Assembly (NCBI GenBank): GCA_036567345.1
Contig: DATCUQ010000020.1
Coordinates: forward strand, 48,742 to 112,741
DNA from: Lutibacter sp.
Lineage (GTDB): Bacteria; Bacteroidota; Bacteroidia; Flavobacteriales; Flavobacteriaceae
Direction: 5' to 3'
Length of the DNA: 64,000 bases
Each line of letters begins with the position of its first letter. Position 1 is the first letter of the stretch. Made by a program: the position numbers and the translations under genes. The notes beneath the pieces were generated by a model that had not been told where the DNA came from, ran no database searches, and worked only from the letters and a program-made list of their open reading frames with translations. Shown here one piece after another: positions 10,292-41,004 of this stretch.

Positions 10292-10627
10292 TTATGCTCC
10301 TTACGGGTCTTTTTCAATGCCTTAAGGTTGTTTGTGCATTCCTCAACGTTGTTTTTCTGTTTCTGCGAGCTCTTGTTGTGTTGCTCCACGTTCTTTTTCA
10401 ATTCCTGCGAACTCTTGTTGTGCTCCTCCGTGTTCTCGTTGCATTCCTCCACGTTCTTGTTGTGCTCCTCCGTGTTGTTTTCCTATTCCTCCACGTTCTT
10501 GGTGCATTCCCGCACGACCTTGTTGCGTTCCCGCACGTTCTTGTTGTGCTCCTCCGTGTTGTTTTCCTATTCCTCCACGTTCTTGGTGCGTTCCTTGGTG
10601 TTCTTTTTCAATTTTTTGGGTTGTAGC
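10292..10627. repeat. Degenerate 21-bp tandem array, ~16 units, with an 84-bp higher-order duplication
   Basis: Units phase exactly every 21 nt from 10292 (plus-strand consensus TTGTGCTCCTCCACGTTCTTG). A 56-nt exact repeat occurs at 10450-10505 and 10534-10589. Four reading frames are open across it. Confidence 0.92.
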
Positions 10628-10642
10628 AATGCGAATATACAA
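10343..10642 (-). CDS. candidate Gly/Gln/Glu/Arg-rich heptad-repeat small protein encoded by the 21-bp array
   Basis: Among the open frames I checked in detail, this one has strongly A/T-biased third codon positions (CAA GAA CGT GGA GGA GCA CAA). Peptide repeat (Q/E)(E/R)(R/H)GG(A/I/M)(Q/G). TTG start 8 nt after the stop of the RM gene. No ATG at the 5' end. Confidence 0.4.
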   Translation of the reverse strand: MYIRIATTQKIEKEHQGTHQERGGIGKQHGGAQQERAGTQQGRAGMHQERGGIGKQHGGAQQERGGMQREHGGAQQEFAGIEKERGATQQELAETEKQR

Positions 10643-10650
10643 ATTTGAGG

Positions 10651-13600
10651 TTATTCCATGTCTATTTTATCAATTTCTTTCATGAGCCTGTTGGTTTCTG
10701 ACAGGGCAACAATAATTTTTTGATAATGTAAAATATCCTCAAAGTTTAAAGTTCTTCCTTTTCGGTCTTTCAGCCATTTTTGGGCAGGTTGATAACCTCC
10801 AATATAAAATTCCCAAGCAGCCAATGGCACATTTGAAAAATATTGAAGTTCTCCGTTTTCCGAATGGGTTGTTTTGTCGTAATTGATATAAACTTTGCCG
10901 ACCACCCCGCCCTGCGGGCATCCCTCCAATGGAGGGGAATTTACAAAGTGTGGTTTTCCCACCACATTATCGCCATTTATTGGATATTGGGTGATGTAAT
11001 CTTCCACAATTGGACTTTCCAATAAATGTATTTGACGAATTTCTCCGCCCAGTTTTACCAATTTCCAAAAAGTATTTGTGTCTTTTGGATAGGGTACACG
11101 CGGAAAATCTATTTTTAGAAATTCTTTGTATTTCTCTCTGTATGTTGGCGAATGTAAAACGGCATAGATATAATCTAAAATATCAATAGGAGCAAAGACC
11201 TCCCCTTGCCCCTCCGAAGGAGGGGAAACAGTATCTTCATAAATAAGGATTTTGTTTTTGCTGTCGAGCTTTTCCTTTACTTTTAGCATCACCAGTTCTG
11301 GATTTTTAAAAACTTCTTCATTTGTAAAACGAATCACTTCATAACCAAGATTATTTAATTTTTCGGTTCTTAACGCATCTTGTTCCTTTTGTTGTAAATG
11401 AATTTTTCCATCAATTTCAATGACTACGTTGCTGCTTAAACAAACAAAATCTGTAATAAAATTATCAATAATATGTTGCCTCCTTATTTTATGACCTGTT
11501 TTTTTATTTCTAAAATATTCCCATATTACTTTTTCAGCCTTCGTAGGTTCATCTTTTAAAATATCCCGCATCTCTTTTATTACCGGATAATTTTTAGGAT
11601 TTGCCGTAATGTACCCAGGCTGCGAAAGTCCCTCCTTTGGAGGGGTTGGAGAGGTCTTCTCGTTTGTAAATGTTAAGCCTAATTTATCAGCTATTTGCTT
11701 TACAATTTCAGCATTTAGGTTTGGTGTTCTTTCTAAATGCATGGGGGCAGATTGCAATGGAGCATGCTCCATTGTTTTTATGGTTTGTTGGTTGGTGGTT
11801 TCGGGATAGAGGTAAAGCTGAAAATGATAAGAACCTGTTGAACTTTCTGCTGTTTTCATTTCTGATAATGTATTAGAAATGAAAAAGTGATTAATTTCTC
11901 TGTTTTTAGTTTGTCTGCCTAAGATTAAGGAGTAATTTTTAAAGAATGAATGTTTTATTTGTGTGTGTCTATGTCGAACAACTAAATCTGTATCATAATA
12001 AATAAATCTGCTGTCAAATGGACGATAAATTATTGTTTTAAATTTTGATGGTGTAAATGAATAATTTGAATTTTCTGATGTTAGCAGATAGTTTTCTATT
12101 TGGCTTTTTAATTCGTTTGTATTAAAACCTATTACAATAGCATCGCGGTGAGTTTTAATTCCAGCTGCTTTAACCTGAAATAAATCATCAATTGAAAAAC
12201 CTTTTTTATAAGAGGATTCTCCCTCATAGCTCTTGTTGATGAAAAAGTAATTAGGCCCATTATTCTCAAGAGAATTCCACTTTAAAGTTCGTAAGTTATT
12301 ATCATTTAGAAAATCATACTTCATTTCTCGTTTTCCATATAAATCATAATGAAACACCTTTCCTAATTCATTGTTCTTCTTTTCTCCTGTTTTTATAAAA
12401 AGATTTATCGAAACACCTTGTTGAATATCAAACACATTTTGGTCAGCCGAGCCATCAGGACAAATTTCCTTTTTCTTTGTATTTCCGTGTAAATCCAAAA
12501 TGTAAATTTTATCAAAACACCCTAATAAATTTTTACGCATTTGGCGAAAAACAATGCCATCAATAAAGCTATTATTGGAAATATAGGCTAAAACACCACT
12601 TCCGTTTTTTTCAATATAGTGCTGACCATATCTTATAAATTTAACATAATCATCAGAAAGAGAATTGTAACTTTTTTCTTTCAAATCCTTTTTATAATCA
12701 GTGGTTAATTTTTCAATCCAAGGTGATTTATTAGAACTACTTACTGAATACGGCGGATTTCCAATAACACACATTACGGGCGTATCGCGTTTTATATGGT
12801 TTGCTTCGTTGGCTTCGGTACTTAACCAATTGGCAAATAATGTACCGGTATCTGGGTGAAATTCTTCTAAACTGTTGGTTAAATAAATGCGTGTTCGTTG
12901 ACCACCCCGTCCTGCGGACACCCCTCCGGTTGGAGGGGAATTTTTGTAACCGGTTTGTTTTAACAATAAATCGATTTGTAAATGTGCCATGGCGTAACTT
13001 GCCATCAACAACTCAAAACCATTTAAACGAGGGAGCAAATCATTTTCAACATAACTGCTCCAAATGCCTTCTTGTCCTTTAAACTTTTTGTGTACGTGTT
13101 TAATTACTTCGGCCAAAAACGTTCCCGTGCCCGTTGCAGGATCTAAAATTTGTACTTTGTGTACCTCTTGTTCGCCAAGGGGTTTAAACCCCTTGTTGGT
13201 TTGTACATTTACTTTTATTTTGGTTTTGGAAGTGTCTGCCAAACCTTGCGGTAAATCAAACTCGGTTTTTAAAATATCATCTACGGCACGCACAATAAAA
13301 TTAACCACTGGCGCAGGCGTGTACCAAACACCGCGAGCTTTTCTTAATTTAGGGTCGTACTCACTTAAAAAGGTTTCGTAAAAATGGATGATTGGGTCTT
13401 CCATTTTTGTGGACTTACCGTAGTTTTTTAAGATTTCTTCAACGTTGCACGCCAAAAATATTTCGGTTAAGTTATCTACAATCCATTTAATGCGGTCATC
13501 AATATCGGGACCTGCGATATAACCGAACAGTTTTCTTAAAAACGGATTGGATTTTGGAATAAGTTCGGCGGCTTCCTGACGGCTAAAAGTTTTTAAAGTT

Positions 13601-14292
13601 GGGTCGTGCAAACGCGCTGCAAACATACCGTAAGCGATGGTTTGTGCATAAACATCGGCAAATCCTTTGGGCGTAATATCGTGTATTAAAATTTCCTTAA
13701 AAGCAATCATTTGCTCTTTAAGTGTGCTATTTTCCTGGTTAATTTGGTCGCTGGTCAACGCTTTCCCAATAACATCAGAAAGAAGTCGGGCTTTGCCCGC
13801 CATCATTTCTGCTAATTTTTTGGAACTTTTAATGGTTTGGCTAATATGCGTGCAAAAATCTTTGATTAAGTTTTCAAACGCCACAAAATTCTCGGGAATA
13901 GGTTTAATTCCTTTTTCGGTGATTTCAGCAATTGCAATTTTGGTGACGAACTCGCCATCGTGGTATAAATGAAAATCTAAATAGTCGGTGAAAATCAGAT
14001 TATTCAATGATGCTTTGTATCTGTCGAATTGTTCTTTGTTTCCGGTTTTCTTTTTTCCTTCTAAATCTTTGTCGCCAATATCTTTCGCCTCAATAAATCC
14101 AACGGGAATGTCTTTTTTTGTCAGGATGTAATCGGGAGCGCCGCAAGATTGTCGTTTTGGTTCGTTGGTTGCTCTAATTGTTGGCACTAAACTTTCAATA
14201 AGTTGTTCTAAACTTCCACGAAAAGTGTGTTCAGTTGCGTTTCCTAAAAGGTAGCGTTGGTTTATGTTTTCAAGATATTTTTCTATGGTCAT
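10651..14292 (-). CDS. single-chain type IIG / type-ISP-like restriction-modification enzyme (N-terminal PD-(D/E)xK nuclease + gamma-class N6-adenine methyltransferase + C-terminal specificity region), carrying four in-frame palindromic insertions and a DUF559 cassette
   Basis: GAPDYILTKKDIPVGFIEAKD (PD..ExK). ILDPATGTGTFL (SAM motif I). VIGNPPYS (motif IV). The C-terminal FYIGGYQPAQKWLKDRKGRTL is typical of the Type-ISP/IIG C-terminal domain. The ATG at 14292 (MTIEKYLENI) is preferred; the track ORF extends to a TTG at 14319. Confidence 0.85.
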   Translation of the reverse strand: MTIEKYLENINQRYLLGNATEHTFRGSLEQLIESLVPTIRATNEPKRQSCGAPDYILTKKDIPVGFIEAKDIGDKDLEGKKKTGNKEQFDRYKASLNNLIFTDYLDFHLYHDGEFVTKIAIAEITEKGIKPIPENFVAFENLIKDFCTHISQTIKSSKKLAEMMAGKARLLSDVIGKALTSDQINQENSTLKEQMIAFKEILIHDITPKGFADVYAQTIAYGMFAARLHDPTLKTFSRQEAAELIPKSNPFLRKLFGYIAGPDIDDRIKWIVDNLTEIFLACNVEEILKNYGKSTKMEDPIIHFYETFLSEYDPKLRKARGVWYTPAPVVNFIVRAVDDILKTEFDLPQGLADTSKTKIKVNVQTNKGFKPLGEQEVHKVQILDPATGTGTFLAEVIKHVHKKFKGQEGIWSSYVENDLLPRLNGFELLMASYAMAHLQIDLLLKQTGYKNSPPTGGVSAGRGGQRTRIYLTNSLEEFHPDTGTLFANWLSTEANEANHIKRDTPVMCVIGNPPYSVSSSNKSPWIEKLTTDYKKDLKEKSYNSLSDDYVKFIRYGQHYIEKNGSGVLAYISNNSFIDGIVFRQMRKNLLGCFDKIYILDLHGNTKKKEICPDGSADQNVFDIQQGVSINLFIKTGEKKNNELGKVFHYDLYGKREMKYDFLNDNNLRTLKWNSLENNGPNYFFINKSYEGESSYKKGFSIDDLFQVKAAGIKTHRDAIVIGFNTNELKSQIENYLLTSENSNYSFTPSKFKTIIYRPFDSRFIYYDTDLVVRHRHTQIKHSFFKNYSLILGRQTKNREINHFFISNTLSEMKTAESSTGSYHFQLYLYPETTNQQTIKTMEHAPLQSAPMHLERTPNLNAEIVKQIADKLGLTFTNEKTSPTPPKEGLSQPGYITANPKNYPVIKEMRDILKDEPTKAEKVIWEYFRNKKTGHKIRRQHIIDNFITDFVCLSSNVVIEIDGKIHLQQKEQDALRTEKLNNLGYEVIRFTNEEVFKNPELVMLKVKEKLDSKNKILIYEDTVSPPSEGQGEVFAPIDILDYIYAVLHSPTYREKYKEFLKIDFPRVPYPKDTNTFWKLVKLGGEIRQIHLLESPIVEDYITQYPINGDNVVGKPHFVNSPPLEGCPQGGVVGKVYINYDKTTHSENGELQYFSNVPLAAWEFYIGGYQPAQKWLKDRKGRTLNFEDILHYQKIIVALSETNRLMKEIDKIDME
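10900..10942 (-). repeat. GC-rich palindromic element copy A (in frame in the RM gene, peptide NSPPLEGCPQGGVV)
   Basis: GACCACCCCGCCCTGCGGGCATCCCTCCAATGGAGGGGAATTT. It matches 12900-12943 at 38 of 44 positions by eye. Confidence 0.8.
11195..11224. repeat. GC-rich palindromic element copy C, right inverted repeat of the DUF559 cassette (peptide VSPPSEGQGEV)
   Basis: AAGACCTCCCCTTGCCCCTCCGAAGGAGGG. This is an inverted copy of 11630-11658. Confidence 0.75.
11630..11658. repeat. GC-rich palindromic element copy D, left inverted repeat of the DUF559 cassette (peptide TSPTPPKEGLSQ)
   Basis: Its reverse complement AAGACCTCTCCAACCCCTCCAAAGGAGGG aligns to copy C at 25 of 29 positions plus a 1-nt gap (by eye). 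Confidence 0.75.
12900..12943 (-). repeat. GC-rich palindromic element copy B (in frame in the RM gene, peptide NSPPTGGVSAGRGGQ)
   Basis: GACCACCCCGTCCTGCGGACACCCCTCCGGTTGGAGGGGAATTT, in the same orientation as copy A. It lies between MTase motifs I and IV. Confidence 0.8.
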
Positions 14293-14511
14293 TTTTGTTT
14301 TCTCAATTTTTTTATTCAAAGCGTATGCTAAAATAGGGCTTTTGTTTTAAGCATGGGATAAAGAATTGGAAAAAAACAAATGTGCTATTTGTGCGGCTGG
14401 CTATTTGAGCAGGATTTTTTTTCGGCTTGCGTACAACGAGTTTTTAAAAGATTAAGCACTATGCATTAAGTTTAAATTGCGCAGTGTTTTTATAGGGCGA
14501 TTTATTAAACT

Positions 14512-14539
14512 AAAAAACCTCCCAATTGGGAGGTTTTAA
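14512..14539 (-). terminator. intrinsic terminator after the lipoprotein gene
   Basis: AACCTCCCAATTGGGAGGTT hairpin, followed by a T-run on the minus strand. Confidence 0.75.
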
Positions 14540-27770: not shown

Positions 27771-27797
27771 AATTCCCCCTTCGGGGGCTAGGGGGCT
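27771..27797. repeat. GC-rich hairpin element (CCCCC-GAAG-GGGGG type)
   Basis: AATTCCCCCTTCGGGGGCTAGGGGGCT. Its reverse complement matches 40978-41004 at 25 of 27 positions by eye. It abuts the trmB stop codon. Confidence 0.75.
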
Positions 27798-33083: not shown

Positions 33084-33116
33084 TATCCCCAGCCCTTTCC
33101 GAAGGAAAGGGAGTTT
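33084..33116. repeat. GC-rich hairpin element (CCCTTTCC-GAA-GGAAAGGG)
   Basis: TATCCCCAGCCCTTTCCGAAGGAAAGGGAG, just after the gmk stop. It has the same C-box + hairpin architecture as the other elements. Confidence 0.6.
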
Positions 33117-40344: not shown

Positions 40345-40986
40345 ATGAATTATCTTTTGCTGGAAGCAGCACTTAAAAAAAGAACAAAACTCGACTATTT
40401 TTGGGGCAGAAAGCAGGACGATGAATTTGACAAACAGACCAATTTTATCTACAAAACGACCTCCTTTGAGTCTCTTTTGGAAACGATAGAAATCTACTTT
40501 AAAGACAACCCAAAATACAATGACTTAAAGAATTACGCCTTAAACCGATGGTTTAATTTTTGGTCGGCAAAAGCTGTTGAAAGCATTTTTTGCGAACATG
40601 AAAACGTCAAACCGCATTTAGATTCTTATAACAAATTCACCGATTTTTATATCCAAAACATTCCTTTTGACCATAAAACCACTGTTTTCCCAAAAGGGTT
40701 TGGGAAATCGGTTCCTTACGGAATTTTGCATAAAAGCGAATTGATTGCATGGCTGTATGAAAACCAGAGCCAGCAACAACGTAAACATCACAAAAACAGG
40801 CTTTTTATTGTTTTGGTAAATTATCAGGAAGAAGACGGACATTGGAAATTAAAATCGGAAATTGGCTGGCTCAAAGAAATAATCTCAGCTTATTTGCTTA
40901 ATTTTGACCGGTCAAAGCTTCACAGCTTTACTTTTGAAAACACCACCGTTTATGCCGATATTATTTGGGCAATAAAGGCCCCCTAA
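40345..40986 (+). CDS. hypothetical protein, candidate type II restriction endonuclease partner of the downstream methylase
   Basis: 213-aa ORF on the same strand, directly upstream of the MTase. There is a possible D..(D/E)xK-like DFYIQNIPFDHK. Function is inferred from context only. The last codons and the stop lie inside a GC-rich hairpin element. Confidence 0.4.
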   Translation: MNYLLLEAALKKRTKLDYFWGRKQDDEFDKQTNFIYKTTSFESLLETIEIYFKDNPKYNDLKNYALNRWFNFWSAKAVESIFCEHENVKPHLDSYNKFTDFYIQNIPFDHKTTVFPKGFGKSVPYGILHKSELIAWLYENQSQQQRKHHKNRLFIVLVNYQEEDGHWKLKSEIGWLKEIISAYLLNFDRSKLHSFTFENTTVYADIIWAIKAP

Positions 40987-41004
40987 CCCCCGAAGGGGGA
41001 ATTT
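40978..41004. repeat. GC-rich hairpin element (CCCCC-GAAG-GGGGG type)
   Basis: GGCCCCCTAACCCCCGAAGGGGGAATT. It contains the TAA stop of ORF 40345-40986. Confidence 0.75.

What the first reader, a model, noticed from the sequence alone, without database searches (positions are those of the whole stretch)
10900..12943. Four GC-rich palindromic elements all inserted in frame in one ORF (RPE-like behaviour in a flavobacterium)
Besides the inverted pair around DUF559, two direct copies of a 43/44-nt element lie at 10900-10942 and 12900-12943 (GACCACCCCG.CCTGCGG.CA.CCCTCC-loop-GGAGGGGAATTT; 38 of 44 identical by eye). The second copy lies between MTase motif I and the NPPY motif. The first lies in the C-terminal specificity region. 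Because of a 1-nt loop difference, part of each copy is read in a different phase (NSPPLEGCPQGGVV vs NSPPTGGVSAGRGGQ), yet the ORF stays open in both cases. Elements with related architecture (C-box + CCCCC/GAAG/GGGGG hairpin + AATT) sit in intergenic DNA at 27771-27797, 33084-33116 and 40978-41004. Frame-preserving palindromic insertions into proteins are well known for Rickettsia palindromic elements. I am not aware of a description for Flavobacteriia. One defence gene carrying four of them is a striking concentration.
Basis: partly seen in the sequence, partly recalled or inferred. Interest (0 to 1): 0.7.

Follow-up and report, generated by a model that had tools for sequence, protein, structure and literature searches.

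The report
In-frame triplex-motif repeats and nuclease cassette
An intact restriction-modification gene of a Lutibacter carries, inside its reading frame, two solo copies of a GC-rich repeat found across many bacterial phyla plus a small endonuclease (DUF559) gene bracketed by two more such repeats, which suggests that this long-known but unexplained repeat class (BoxC/PIT "triplex motifs") travels with a nuclease and can lodge inside proteins without breaking them.

Summary
All four CCCTCC-loop-GGAGGG hairpins in the 64-kb window lie in one 1213-aa Type IIG restriction-modification ORF (10651-14292, minus strand); none are expected by chance. About half of 120 orthologs, 60-85% identical, lack each insertion, so these are insertions and not ancestral peptides. 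All four share one architecture: C-rich arm, loop, complementary G-arm, spacer, mirror-repeat G-arm. That is the known BoxC/PIT/TM "intrastrand triplex" repeat class (Holder 2015), previously reported as intergenic and with no mobility gene. The two outer copies are a ~44-nt long form in which a covarying 12-nt hairpin replaces the spacer. Near-identical copies occur in many phyla and in viral contigs. The two inner copies are the inverted termini of a 460-bp cassette encoding a DUF559 (Vsr-like PD-(D/E)XK) nuclease. Related DUF559 cassettes with cognate repeats sit in frame in HsdR, HsdS, HsdM, QueA, LeuRS, MetRS, IleRS and MetH. They also occur as standalone ORFs, including E. coli ycjD next to a BoxC element. 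My best reading is a selfish nuclease-plus-repeat element tolerated in surface loops. The link between repeat and nuclease is shown; the mobilisation mechanism is inferred. I found no prior description of that link.

The parts
10651..14292 (-). Host gene: an intact Type IIG (MmeI / Type ISP-like) restriction-modification enzyme of 1213 aa from the ATG at 14292 (an alternative TTG lies at 14319). It has an N-terminal PD..EAK nuclease motif, an N6-adenine MTase (DPATGTGTF, NPPY) and a Type_ISP_C specificity domain.
   Evidence: ORF. Pfam Type_ISP_C 1.8e-72, N6_Mtase, Eco57I and MmeI_Mtase. PADLOC REase_MTase_IIG at 1122 bits. PDB LlaGI 5FFJ and LlaBIII 4XQK. Identical to P0001, 'type ISP restriction/modification enzyme [Lutibacter sp.]'.
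12900..12943 (-). Solo long-form triplex-motif element (site A, between MTase motif I and NPPY). Sense strand: AATT-CCCCTCC-AACC-GGAGGGG-T-GTCC-GCA-GGAC-GGGGTGG-TC. It encodes NSPPTGGVSAGRGG.
   Evidence: Absent from about 77 of 117 orthologs. Empty in the P0008 DNA and present in the P0007 DNA. AF2 pLDDT is 24-32, coil.
10900..10942 (-). Solo long-form triplex-motif element (site D, a beta-hairpin loop of the C-terminal specificity domain). It encodes NSPPLEGCPQGGVV.
   Evidence: The baseline is KPKYQDGKVYIN in most orthologs, and some carry 1-4 tandem copies or whole DUF559 cassettes here. It forms a loop between two predicted strands.
11197..11656 (-). The whole DUF559 cassette (460 bp), inserted in frame. 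It replaces the 6-aa loop ETTENT between NEK and FAPID.
   Evidence: Comparison with empty orthologs at the protein level and the DNA level. The same junctions are used by four DUF559 subfamilies.
11630..11656 (+). Upstream terminus of the cassette: a short-form triplex-motif element, CCCTCC-TTT-GGAGGGG-TT-GGAGAGG-TC. In the gene's frame it is read antisense as TSPTPPKEG.
   Evidence: (I12). pLDDT is 30-40, coil.
11197..11225 (-). Downstream terminus of the cassette: a short-form element whose sense strand is CCCCTCC-TTC-GGAGGGG-CAA-GGGGAGG-TC, with an exact mirror third arm. It encodes SPPSEGQGEV.
   Evidence: The same ~30-nt sequence is about 90% conserved next to DUF559-A copies whose third codon positions are only 36-60% identical, and it lies outside the ORF in standalone copies.
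11266..11559 (-). DUF559 (Vsr-like PD-(D/E)XK endonuclease) domain, subfamily 'A'.
   Evidence: Pfam PF04480 2.5e-28. PDB 3HRL 8e-17. dN/dS of 0.03-0.2 against relatives. AF2 pLDDT of 73-94, an independent folded domain.
11765..11784 (.). A possible fifth small insertion: the perfect 20-nt palindrome CAATGGAGCATGCTCCATTG, inside an 11-13-aa expansion (MEHAPLQSAPMHL) that most orthologs lack.
   Evidence: It lies at the right edge of a diverged middle block relative to P0007.
27773..27796 (+). Intergenic short triplex-motif variant, TTCCCCC-TTC-GGGGG-CTA-GGGGGC.
40978..41001 (-). Second copy of the same intergenic variant, TTCCCCC-TTC-GGGGG-TTA-GGGGGC.

Best explanation
The gene is a working Type IIG R-M enzyme whose surface loops have been colonised by a selfish DNA family. 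That family consists of (a) GC-rich three-block repeats (C-arm, loop, G-arm, spacer or extra hairpin, mirror G-arm; the BoxC/PIT/TM class) and (b) a small DUF559 (Vsr-like PD-(D/E)XK) endonuclease ORF bracketed by two such repeats. Shown: the repeats and the cassette are insertions. They recur at the same permissive loops of this gene family independently of host phylogeny. The same cassette subfamilies occur in unrelated genes and as standalone ORFs. The repeats are conserved at the nucleotide and structure level, and the nuclease is under purifying selection. Inferred: the DUF559 nuclease recognises its cognate repeat and mobilises or copies cassettes and solo repeats, probably by cleavage followed by host repair or template switching rather than by classical transposition. 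Because the repeat rarely contains a stop codon in any frame and encodes Pro/Gly/Ser-rich flexible linkers, insertions whose length is a multiple of three are tolerated in loops. An in-frame cassette also gets its nuclease translated as a passenger domain of the host protein.
For: Empty sites in orthologs. Cross-phylum near-identical copies with sharp boundaries and unrelated flanks. In stem 2, 151/160 copies have a Watson-Crick pair of four types against 85.7 expected, and the loops are hypervariable. In 20 of 137 element loci a DUF559 ORF lies beside the element, within about 140 nt and usually within about 70 nt. Terminal repeats are significant in 28/99 cassettes against 1/99 shuffled controls, and each DUF559 lineage has its own arm sequence. 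DUF559 sits in frame in HsdR, HsdS, HsdM and QueA and in LeuRS, MetH, MetRS, IleRS, HsdS and HsdM, and standalone copies have their own ATG. Host identity is about 84-87% whichever cassette type is present, while the cassette types are only 28-55% identical to each other. DUF559 dN/dS is 0.03-0.2. The terminus is about 90% conserved while synonymous sites are saturated, also when untranslated. Near-identical genes differ in tandem copy number of the repeat. In the AF2 model the repeat peptides are low-confidence coil and DUF559 is a confident separate domain. E. coli ycjD (DUF559) lies 168 nt from a perfect BoxC/TMECO element, with 0 expected in the 10-kb region.
Against: No nuclease or transposition activity has been shown for any DUF559 protein. 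No clear target-site duplication was found. PD-(D/E)XK nucleases cannot by themselves do strand transfer. 85% of sampled long-form copies have no adjacent DUF559, and the window contains no type B/C DUF559 cognate to its two solo long-form copies. Repeat orientation relative to DUF559 is not fixed: it is inverted in both polarities and sometimes direct. Precise reuse of the same junction by four cassette types could reflect cassette exchange by recombination rather than independent insertion.
Confidence: 0.65

Rival explanations
1. The repeats are host-beneficial recombination hot spots rather than purely selfish DNA. Triplex or hairpin-forming repeats placed at domain boundaries of R-M genes would promote exchange of specificity modules and generate new restriction specificities. 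DUF559 would be an accessory or unrelated passenger.
For: Holder et al. 2015 (PMC4666352) link TM repeats to local genomic instability. R-M genes (HsdR, HsdS, HsdM, Type IIG) make up at least 13 of about 40 host ORFs. The window gene and P0007 are 92-100% identical at both ends but 50-70% identical in a middle MTase-TRD block. The right edge of that block is at the site-E palindrome and the left edge lies about 100 nt from site A. P0011 and P0022 are about 99% identical except for a swapped TRD segment and the repeat copy number.
Against: The same elements and cassettes sit in LeuRS, MetRS, IleRS, MetH and QueA, where module shuffling has no obvious value. Most copies are intergenic. The left breakpoint does not coincide with the element. 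The two ideas are not exclusive.
Confidence: 0.15
2. DUF559 acts as a classical homing endonuclease that targets the conserved host-gene sequence at each insertion site, like an intein or intron homing gene without a splicing element. The flanking repeats would be only linkers or insulation and not recognition sites.
For: The cassettes sit in highly conserved genes (aaRS, MetH, R-M genes that are 84-87% identical across hosts) at the same codon junctions in different lineages. Vsr-like nucleases are an established homing endonuclease family, for example I-Bth0305I (PMC3239194, PMC2677866).
Against: Each cassette subfamily occurs in several unrelated host genes and in intergenic sites, which a single long recognition site cannot explain. 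The repeats are conserved at the nucleotide level even when untranslated. Solo repeats are far more numerous than cassettes.
Confidence: 0.12
3. The peptides and the DUF559 domain are ancestral, functional parts of this enzyme family (linkers and a second nuclease domain), and the shorter orthologs have lost them.
For: The ORF is intact and DUF559 is under purifying selection. Many orthologs (57/120) carry a DUF559 at this site.
Against: Four DUF559 subfamilies only 28-55% identical occupy one junction in hosts that are 84-87% identical, with no partition by host similarity. The same subfamilies and repeats occur in unrelated proteins and in intergenic DNA. The same DNA is read in six frames. 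Element-coded peptides are predicted to be disordered.
Confidence: 0.03

Closest known systems
BoxC / PIT (potential intrastrand triplex) / TM elements (Bachellier 1990s; Hoyne & Maher 2000; Holder et al. 2015, PMC4666352)
   Same: Both have the three-block architecture: a C-rich arm, a 3-6-nt loop, a complementary G-arm, a short spacer and a mirror-repeat G-arm. Stems are conserved and loops variable. Both are interspersed multi-copy repeats in distantly related bacteria, including cyanobacteria, and both are associated with variable loci. The E. coli DUF559 gene ycjD sits beside one.
   Different: The arms are 6-7 nt (CCCCTCC), not the 9-nt TMECO consensus, which has 0 matches in the window. 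In the long form a covarying 12-nt hairpin replaces the N3 spacer. TMECO was reported as always intergenic in E. coli MG1655 and without any mobility gene, whereas these copies are translated in frame and bracket a nuclease ORF.
Rickettsia palindromic elements (RPE; Ogata 2000/2002, Claverie & Ogata 2003, as cited in PMC3733652 and PMC10969869)
   Same: Both are palindromic repeats inserted in frame in genes that stay open. Both are absent from orthologs and located in places compatible with the fold.
   Different: RPEs are about 100-150 bp, restricted to Rickettsia, and have no known associated enzyme. The elements here are 27-45 nt, found across phyla, and physically linked to DUF559.
REP / RAYT systems (REPtrons, REPINs)
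   Same: Both are short hairpin repeats scattered through genomes with a single-domain nuclease gene flanked by inverted copies. Solo repeats greatly outnumber the gene.
   Different: RAYT is an HUH/Y1 transposase and REPs carry a GTAG or CGTC tag. Here the protein is a PD-(D/E)XK Vsr-like nuclease, the tag is absent, and the cassettes are often translated inside host proteins.
Inteins and Vsr-like homing endonucleases (I-Bth0305I family; PMC2677866, PMC3239194)
   Same: Both are in-frame selfish insertions carrying an endonuclease inside conserved housekeeping and DNA-metabolism genes, and the nuclease has a Vsr-like fold.
   Different: No Hint or splicing domain and no splice-junction residues are present. 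The insert apparently stays in the mature protein. It sits in permissive loops rather than active sites and is flanked by repeats.

Membership tests
BoxC / PIT / TM intrastrand-triplex repeats | Three consecutive blocks: a C-rich arm, a complementary G-rich arm, and a second G-rich arm in mirror symmetry to the first, separated by short loops. | tested here: met
   Direct reading of all four copies. The short form is CCCCTCC/GGAGGGG/GGGGAGG. The long form is CCCCTCC/GGAGGGG/GGGGTGG with a 12-nt hairpin as the second loop, seen in 160 copies.
BoxC / PIT / TM intrastrand-triplex repeats | Match to the TMECO consensus CCCTCNCCC-N3-6-GGGNGAGGG-N3-GGGNGAGGG. | tested here: not met
   0 matches in the window, against 1 match beside E. 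coli ycjD. This is therefore a different subfamily of the class.
BoxC / PIT / TM intrastrand-triplex repeats | Interspersed multi-copy repeats with conserved stems and variable loops. | tested here: met
BoxC / PIT / TM intrastrand-triplex repeats | Intergenic location (as reported for E. coli). | tested here: not met
   All four lie inside the ORF. About one third of sampled copies lie deep inside long ORFs.
BoxC / PIT / TM intrastrand-triplex repeats | Forms an intramolecular triplex in vitro. | not testable with these tools
   Only hairpin folding could be computed. CD or NMR would be needed.
Rickettsia palindromic elements | In-frame insertion in otherwise conserved ORFs, absent from orthologs. 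| tested here: met
Rickettsia palindromic elements | Palindromic unit of about 100-150 bp belonging to the RPE sequence families of Rickettsia. | tested here: not met
   The elements are 27-45 nt and the host is Lutibacter. Sequence comparison with RPE families was not run.
REP / RAYT | Hairpin repeat tagged by GTAG or CGTC, with an associated HUH/Y1 transposase flanked by inverted repeats. | tested here: not met
   No tag is seen on direct reading. The associated protein is DUF559 by Pfam. Only the flanking arrangement is analogous.
MITE | Terminal inverted repeats plus a target-site duplication, non-coding, mobilised in trans. | tested here: inconclusive
   Terminal repeats are present around cassettes. 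The TSD signal is weak: 41 observed 4-mers against a control mean of 27 and a control maximum of 38.
Intein | A Hint domain, with Cys/Ser at the N-junction and His-Asn plus Cys/Ser/Thr at the C-junction. | tested here: not met
   No Hint or intein Pfam hit. The junctions are NEK|TSP and GEV|FAP.
Group I / II intron or other known RNA element | Match to an Rfam covariance model. | tested here: not met
   No relevant hit at E<=10 over 10500-13200, and none at gathering threshold in 10 element-rich loci.
Type IIG restriction-modification enzyme (host gene) | A single polypeptide with a PD-(D/E)XK nuclease, a gamma-class N6A MTase (motif I, NPPY) and a C-terminal specificity domain. | tested here: met
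DUF559 / Vsr-like PD-(D/E)XK nuclease | PF04480 profile match and similarity to the solved DUF559 structure. | tested here: met
   Pfam 2.5e-28 and 3HRL 8e-17. Catalytic activity was not tested.

The most novel reading that the evidence does not exclude
BoxC/PIT/TM-type repeats, unexplained for about 30 years, may be the cognate ends or recognition sites of a pan-bacterial family of DUF559 (Vsr-like) endonuclease cassettes. This would be a new class of mobile element that behaves like REP/RAYT in intergenic DNA and like an intein without splicing inside proteins. It would be translated as a passenger domain between self-encoded flexible linkers, with a preference for R-M genes and aminoacyl-tRNA synthetases. 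E. coli ycjD plus BoxC would be a directly testable instance.
Probability: 0.4. Interest if true: 0.9.

Novelty: new variant of a known kind. Interest (0 to 1): 0.75.

Why it matters
If the link holds, it gives a candidate enzyme and mechanism for a repeat class (BoxC/PIT/TM) whose origin and spread have had no explanation. It identifies a function for a large 'domain of unknown function' family (DUF559, thousands of proteins). It would also mean that many annotated 'fusions' of DUF559 to R-M enzymes, tRNA synthetases and methionine synthase are parasitic in-frame insertions, which matters for annotation and domain-architecture inference. The repeats mark permissive loops and provide natural flexible linkers, which is useful for protein engineering. 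They may also drive specificity shuffling in R-M systems.

Tried and rejected
- Rfam, at E-value and gathering thresholds: no known RNA family.
- BLAST of the 42-nt consensus against the plasmid and phage collections, and tblastn of a type-B cassette against plasmids: no matches. The nucleotide queries were probably removed by the low-complexity filter, so this is uninformative.
- RNA and DNA folding z-scores of single copies: not distinguishable from shuffles at this GC content. Covariation across copies was the informative test.
- Target-site duplication search: no convincing signal.
- Intein, intron and CRISPR-repeat readings: rejected. There is no Hint domain or splice residues, no Rfam hit and no arrays.
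- An ancestral-linker reading: rejected because all six frames are used and cassette type is incongruent with host similarity.
- Literature searches for DUF559, ycjD, element sequence strings, in-frame palindromes in Bacteroidetes, and nuclease insertions in LeuRS: no description of the nuclease-repeat association. The library lacks most subscription-journal papers, for example Hoyne & Maher 2000.
Full report
**Observation**

A single ORF on the minus strand (10651-14292 from the ATG; 1213 aa) reads through four GC-rich hairpins.
- The pattern CCCTCC-N2-6-GGAGGG occurs four times in the 64-kb window, all inside this ORF, against zero in 100 dinucleotide-preserving shuffles.
- The 18-nt box GACCACCCCGYCCTGCGG occurs only at 10900 and 12900.
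- Only ten perfect GC-rich 6-bp hairpins exist in the whole window (36% GC), and four of them are in this gene.
- The two outer copies are 38/44 identical. A 1-nt difference in loop length shifts the frame inside the element, giving NSPPLEGCPQGGVV versus NSPPTGGVSAGRGG.

**The host gene**

Pfam finds N6_Mtase, Eco57I and MmeI_Mtase, plus a Type_ISP_C specificity domain split by a DUF559 domain at aa 912-1009. PADLOC calls it a Type IIG REase-MTase at 1122 bits. The closest solved structures are LlaGI and LlaBIII. The protein is identical to a database entry from a Lutibacter MAG. The PD..EAK, DPATGTGTF and NPPY motifs are intact. Comparison with the cassette-free ortholog P0008 gives dN/dS of 0.06. 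There is no sign of a pseudogene, but transcription could not be tested.

**Evidence that these are insertions**

I aligned the 120 best homologs, which are 60-85% identical.
- At site A (DNA 12900-12943) most orthologs read GYKPT-xN-QR. Others carry one to three copies of NSPPTGGVSAGRGG, FPSSGGVSAGRGG, LPSFGGVGGG or TTPSSGHPSNGGE.
- At site D (10900-10942) the baseline is KPKYQDGKVYIN. Others carry one to four tandem NSPPLEGCPQGGVV units, other small GC-rich repeats, or whole DUF559 cassettes.
- At the DUF559 site, 63 orthologs carry no cassette and most of these read NEK-ETTENT-FAPID. The other 57 carry a DUF559 cassette of one of four subfamilies: A 33, B 8, C 8 and D 8.
- DNA comparison with an empty ortholog (P0008) and with a close relative that shares both solo copies but lacks the cassette (P0007) confirms this.
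- Host N-terminal identity is about 84-87% whichever cassette type is present, or none. The cassette subfamilies are only 28-55% identical to each other. Cassette content is therefore not inherited with the gene.
- Four elements in one gene is typical for this family. About two thirds of the orthologs have at least one expanded loop, and some carry up to nine element-derived peptides.

**What the element is**

Exact-pattern scans found the long form in 17 viral-contig stretches. Hits include Verrucomicrobiota, Kiritimatiellota, Lentisphaerae, cyanobacteria, Flavobacteriaceae, Bacteroidales, Pedobacter, Serratia, Pseudomonadales, Desulfobulbaceae, Oscillospiraceae, Thermotogaceae, Chthonomonas and others.
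- The copies have sharp ends and unrelated flanks. The consensus is (A)ATT-CCCCTCC-N3-GGAGGGG-T-GNCC-GNA-GGNC-GGGGTGG-(G/T)T.
- The one freely varying pair of the second stem is Watson-Crick in 151 of 160 distinct copies (C-G 112, G-C 26, T-A 12, A-T 1), against 85.7 expected. There are 7 G-T pairs, 0 T-G pairs and 2 mismatches. Both loops are hypervariable.
- No Rfam family matches.
- The third block (GGGGTGG, or GGGGAGG in the short form) is the mirror image of the second (GGAGGGG). This architecture of C-arm, G-arm and mirror G-arm is that of the BoxC / PIT / 'TM' intrastrand-triplex repeats.
- Holder et al. 2015 (PMC4666352) give the E. coli consensus CCCTCNCCC-N3-6-GGGNGAGGG-N3-GGGNGAGGG and found 3610 copies in 262 proteobacterial genomes. 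They report it as always intergenic in MG1655, with no promoter or terminator activity, associated with local genomic variability, and with no transposase or integrase nearby.
- The window's elements belong to that class by architecture but not to the TMECO sequence subfamily. In the long form a 12-nt hairpin takes the place of the 3-nt second loop.

**The nuclease link**

Of 137 loci retrieved by the long-form pattern, 20 have a DUF559 ORF beside the element, within about 140 nt and usually within about 70 nt. Typically one copy lies on each side in inverted orientation.
- A gapless inverted-repeat score of at least 14 is reached by 28 of 99 cassettes, against 1 of 99 shuffled controls.
- Each DUF559 lineage has its own arm sequence. 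Type A has CCCCTCC in the short form. Types B and C have CCCCTCC in the long form. The LeuRS lineage has CCTCCCC, the MetH lineage has CCTTCCC/CCTCCCC, and E. coli YcjD has CCCTCNCCC.
- The window's cassette (11197-11656) is type A. Its termini are GACCTCYCC-NN-NCCCTCC-NAA-GGAGGG on both sides in inverted orientation.
- Against relatives, DUF559-A has dN/dS of 0.03-0.2 and third-position identity of only 0.36-0.60. The ~30-nt downstream terminus is about 90% conserved, including in standalone copies where it lies after the stop codon. It is therefore a DNA-level feature of the element and not a protein linker under amino-acid selection.
- Among 45 long-form copies deep inside long ORFs, all six reading frames are used: 13, 11, 7, 6, 6 and 2.

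**Host range of in-frame copies**

Pfam confirms DUF559 cassettes or solo repeats in frame in the following genes:
- Type I HsdR.
- Six HsdS genes.
- HsdM.
- A helicase.
- QueA.
- Leucyl-tRNA synthetase (ten loci).
- Methionyl-tRNA synthetase and isoleucyl-tRNA synthetase.
- Cobalamin-dependent methionine synthase (six loci).

Standalone DUF559 ORFs with their own start codon are common, several of them at the 3' ends of hsdS genes. R-M genes make up at least 13 of about 40 host ORFs in the long-form sample. That sample is an arbitrary subset, so the enrichment is indicative only.

**Structure**

An AlphaFold2 model of residues 165-1213 was built with a 105-sequence alignment (mean pLDDT 68). 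It places every element-coded peptide in low-confidence coil.
- Site A: pLDDT 24-32.
- Upstream terminus: pLDDT 30-40.
- Downstream terminus: pLDDT 37.
- Site D: a loop between two strands, pLDDT 69-74.
- The DUF559 core: a confident separate domain, pLDDT 73-94.

This fits insertion in permissive loops, with the repeats acting as Pro/Gly-rich linkers.

**Dynamics**

P0011 and P0022 are about 99% identical over most of their length and 100% identical in DUF559. They differ by one versus five tandem copies of the downstream terminus, by a 3-aa indel in the site-A element, and by a swapped specificity segment. The window gene and P0007 are 92-100% identical at both ends. Over gene nt ~1500-2557 they are only 50-70% identical. 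The right edge of that block falls at a further small palindromic insertion (11765-11784), and the left edge lies about 100 nt from site A.

**E. coli**

The only NCBIfam model hit by these domains is the YcjD family. In K-12, ycjD (b1289) has a degenerate triplex motif overlapping its stop codon. A duplicated fragment of its own 3' end follows, and then a perfect TMECO element 168 nt downstream on the same strand.
- That 56-nt element has a median of 18 copies per genome in 5426 complete E. coli genomes.
- ycjD is present in 3378 of those genomes.
- A recent study reports ycjD in place of the eefRABCD operon between fabI and sapF in phylogroups A, B1 and C (PMC12817139).
- None of the papers retrievable for DUF559 or ycjD links them to BoxC.

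**Interpretation and limits**

Shown:
- The four elements are insertions of a repeat class conserved at the nucleotide and structure level.
- Two of them are the termini of a DUF559 cassette.
- Cassettes and repeats recur in unrelated genes and phyla.

Inferred:
- DUF559 is the enzyme that mobilises or copies them.
- In-frame location benefits the element through translation of the nuclease, as well as being what the host tolerates.

The transposition chemistry is unknown. I found no clear target-site duplication, and a PD-(D/E)XK nuclease alone suggests cleavage plus host repair rather than strand transfer. A role for the repeats as recombination hot spots in R-M genes is a live complementary idea. 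The literature library lacks many subscription papers, so prior description cannot be excluded.

Noticed in passing
window 10339-10607: A 21-nt (also 42- and 84-nt) tandem repeat array of about 12 copies lies immediately downstream of the R-M gene's stop codon. ORFs are open on both strands (120 aa on plus, 99 aa on minus) and have no Pfam match.
   Followed up: partly
window 11765-11784: A perfect 20-nt palindrome, CAATGGAGCATGCTCCATTG, lies inside an 11-13-aa expansion (MEHAPLQSAPMHL) that most orthologs lack. It may be a fifth, unrelated palindromic insertion in the same gene. It is predicted to be disordered.
   Followed up: partly
window 10651-14292 versus L002 10001-13282: Mosaic relationship with the closest relative, P0007: 92-100% nt identity at both ends and 50-70% over gene nt ~1500-2557 (MTase C-terminal part plus specificity domain). 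This suggests a module swap. The right edge coincides with the site-E palindrome, and the flanking genes of the two loci differ.
   Followed up: partly
L228 5206-5761 (E. coli K-12 NC_000913.3 1351205-1351760): The E. coli DUF559 gene ycjD is followed by a duplicated fragment of its own 3' end and a perfect BoxC/TMECO element. ycjD is present in only 62% of complete E. coli genomes, while the repeat is present in all of them (1-32 copies).
   Followed up: partly
orthologs P0012, P0018, P0030, P0032, P0050, P0072, P0075, P0078, P0098, P0112 at the same loops: Other small repeat-like peptides recur at the same insertion sites, for example FDSAQRDDKKG / PFDSAQGATEAERSR, DTSTSSVQGR and LTGFGNLSGL. 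The same loops therefore seem to accept several unrelated short GC-rich elements.
   Followed up: no
L041, L048, L072, L079, L109, L110, L121 (Nodosilinea/Leptolyngbya) and L034, L085, L132 (a Pseudomonadales MAG): In these genomes the long-form element has conserved flanks on both sides (for example CCTCAGTTCGGGATAAYGCCGTC-element-GTCAAAAC...). It is therefore embedded in a larger repeat unit there.
   Followed up: no
window 33084-33116: A hairpin, CCCTTTCC-GAAG-GGAAAGGG, preceded by CCCCAG, in intergenic DNA. It resembles the three-block architecture only loosely and is a single copy in the window.
   Followed up: no
window 14514-14537: AAAACCTCCCAATTGGGAGGTTTT, a perfect palindrome flanked by A and T runs between the R-M gene and the next ORF. 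It looks like a bidirectional intrinsic terminator and not a member of the repeat family.
   Followed up: no
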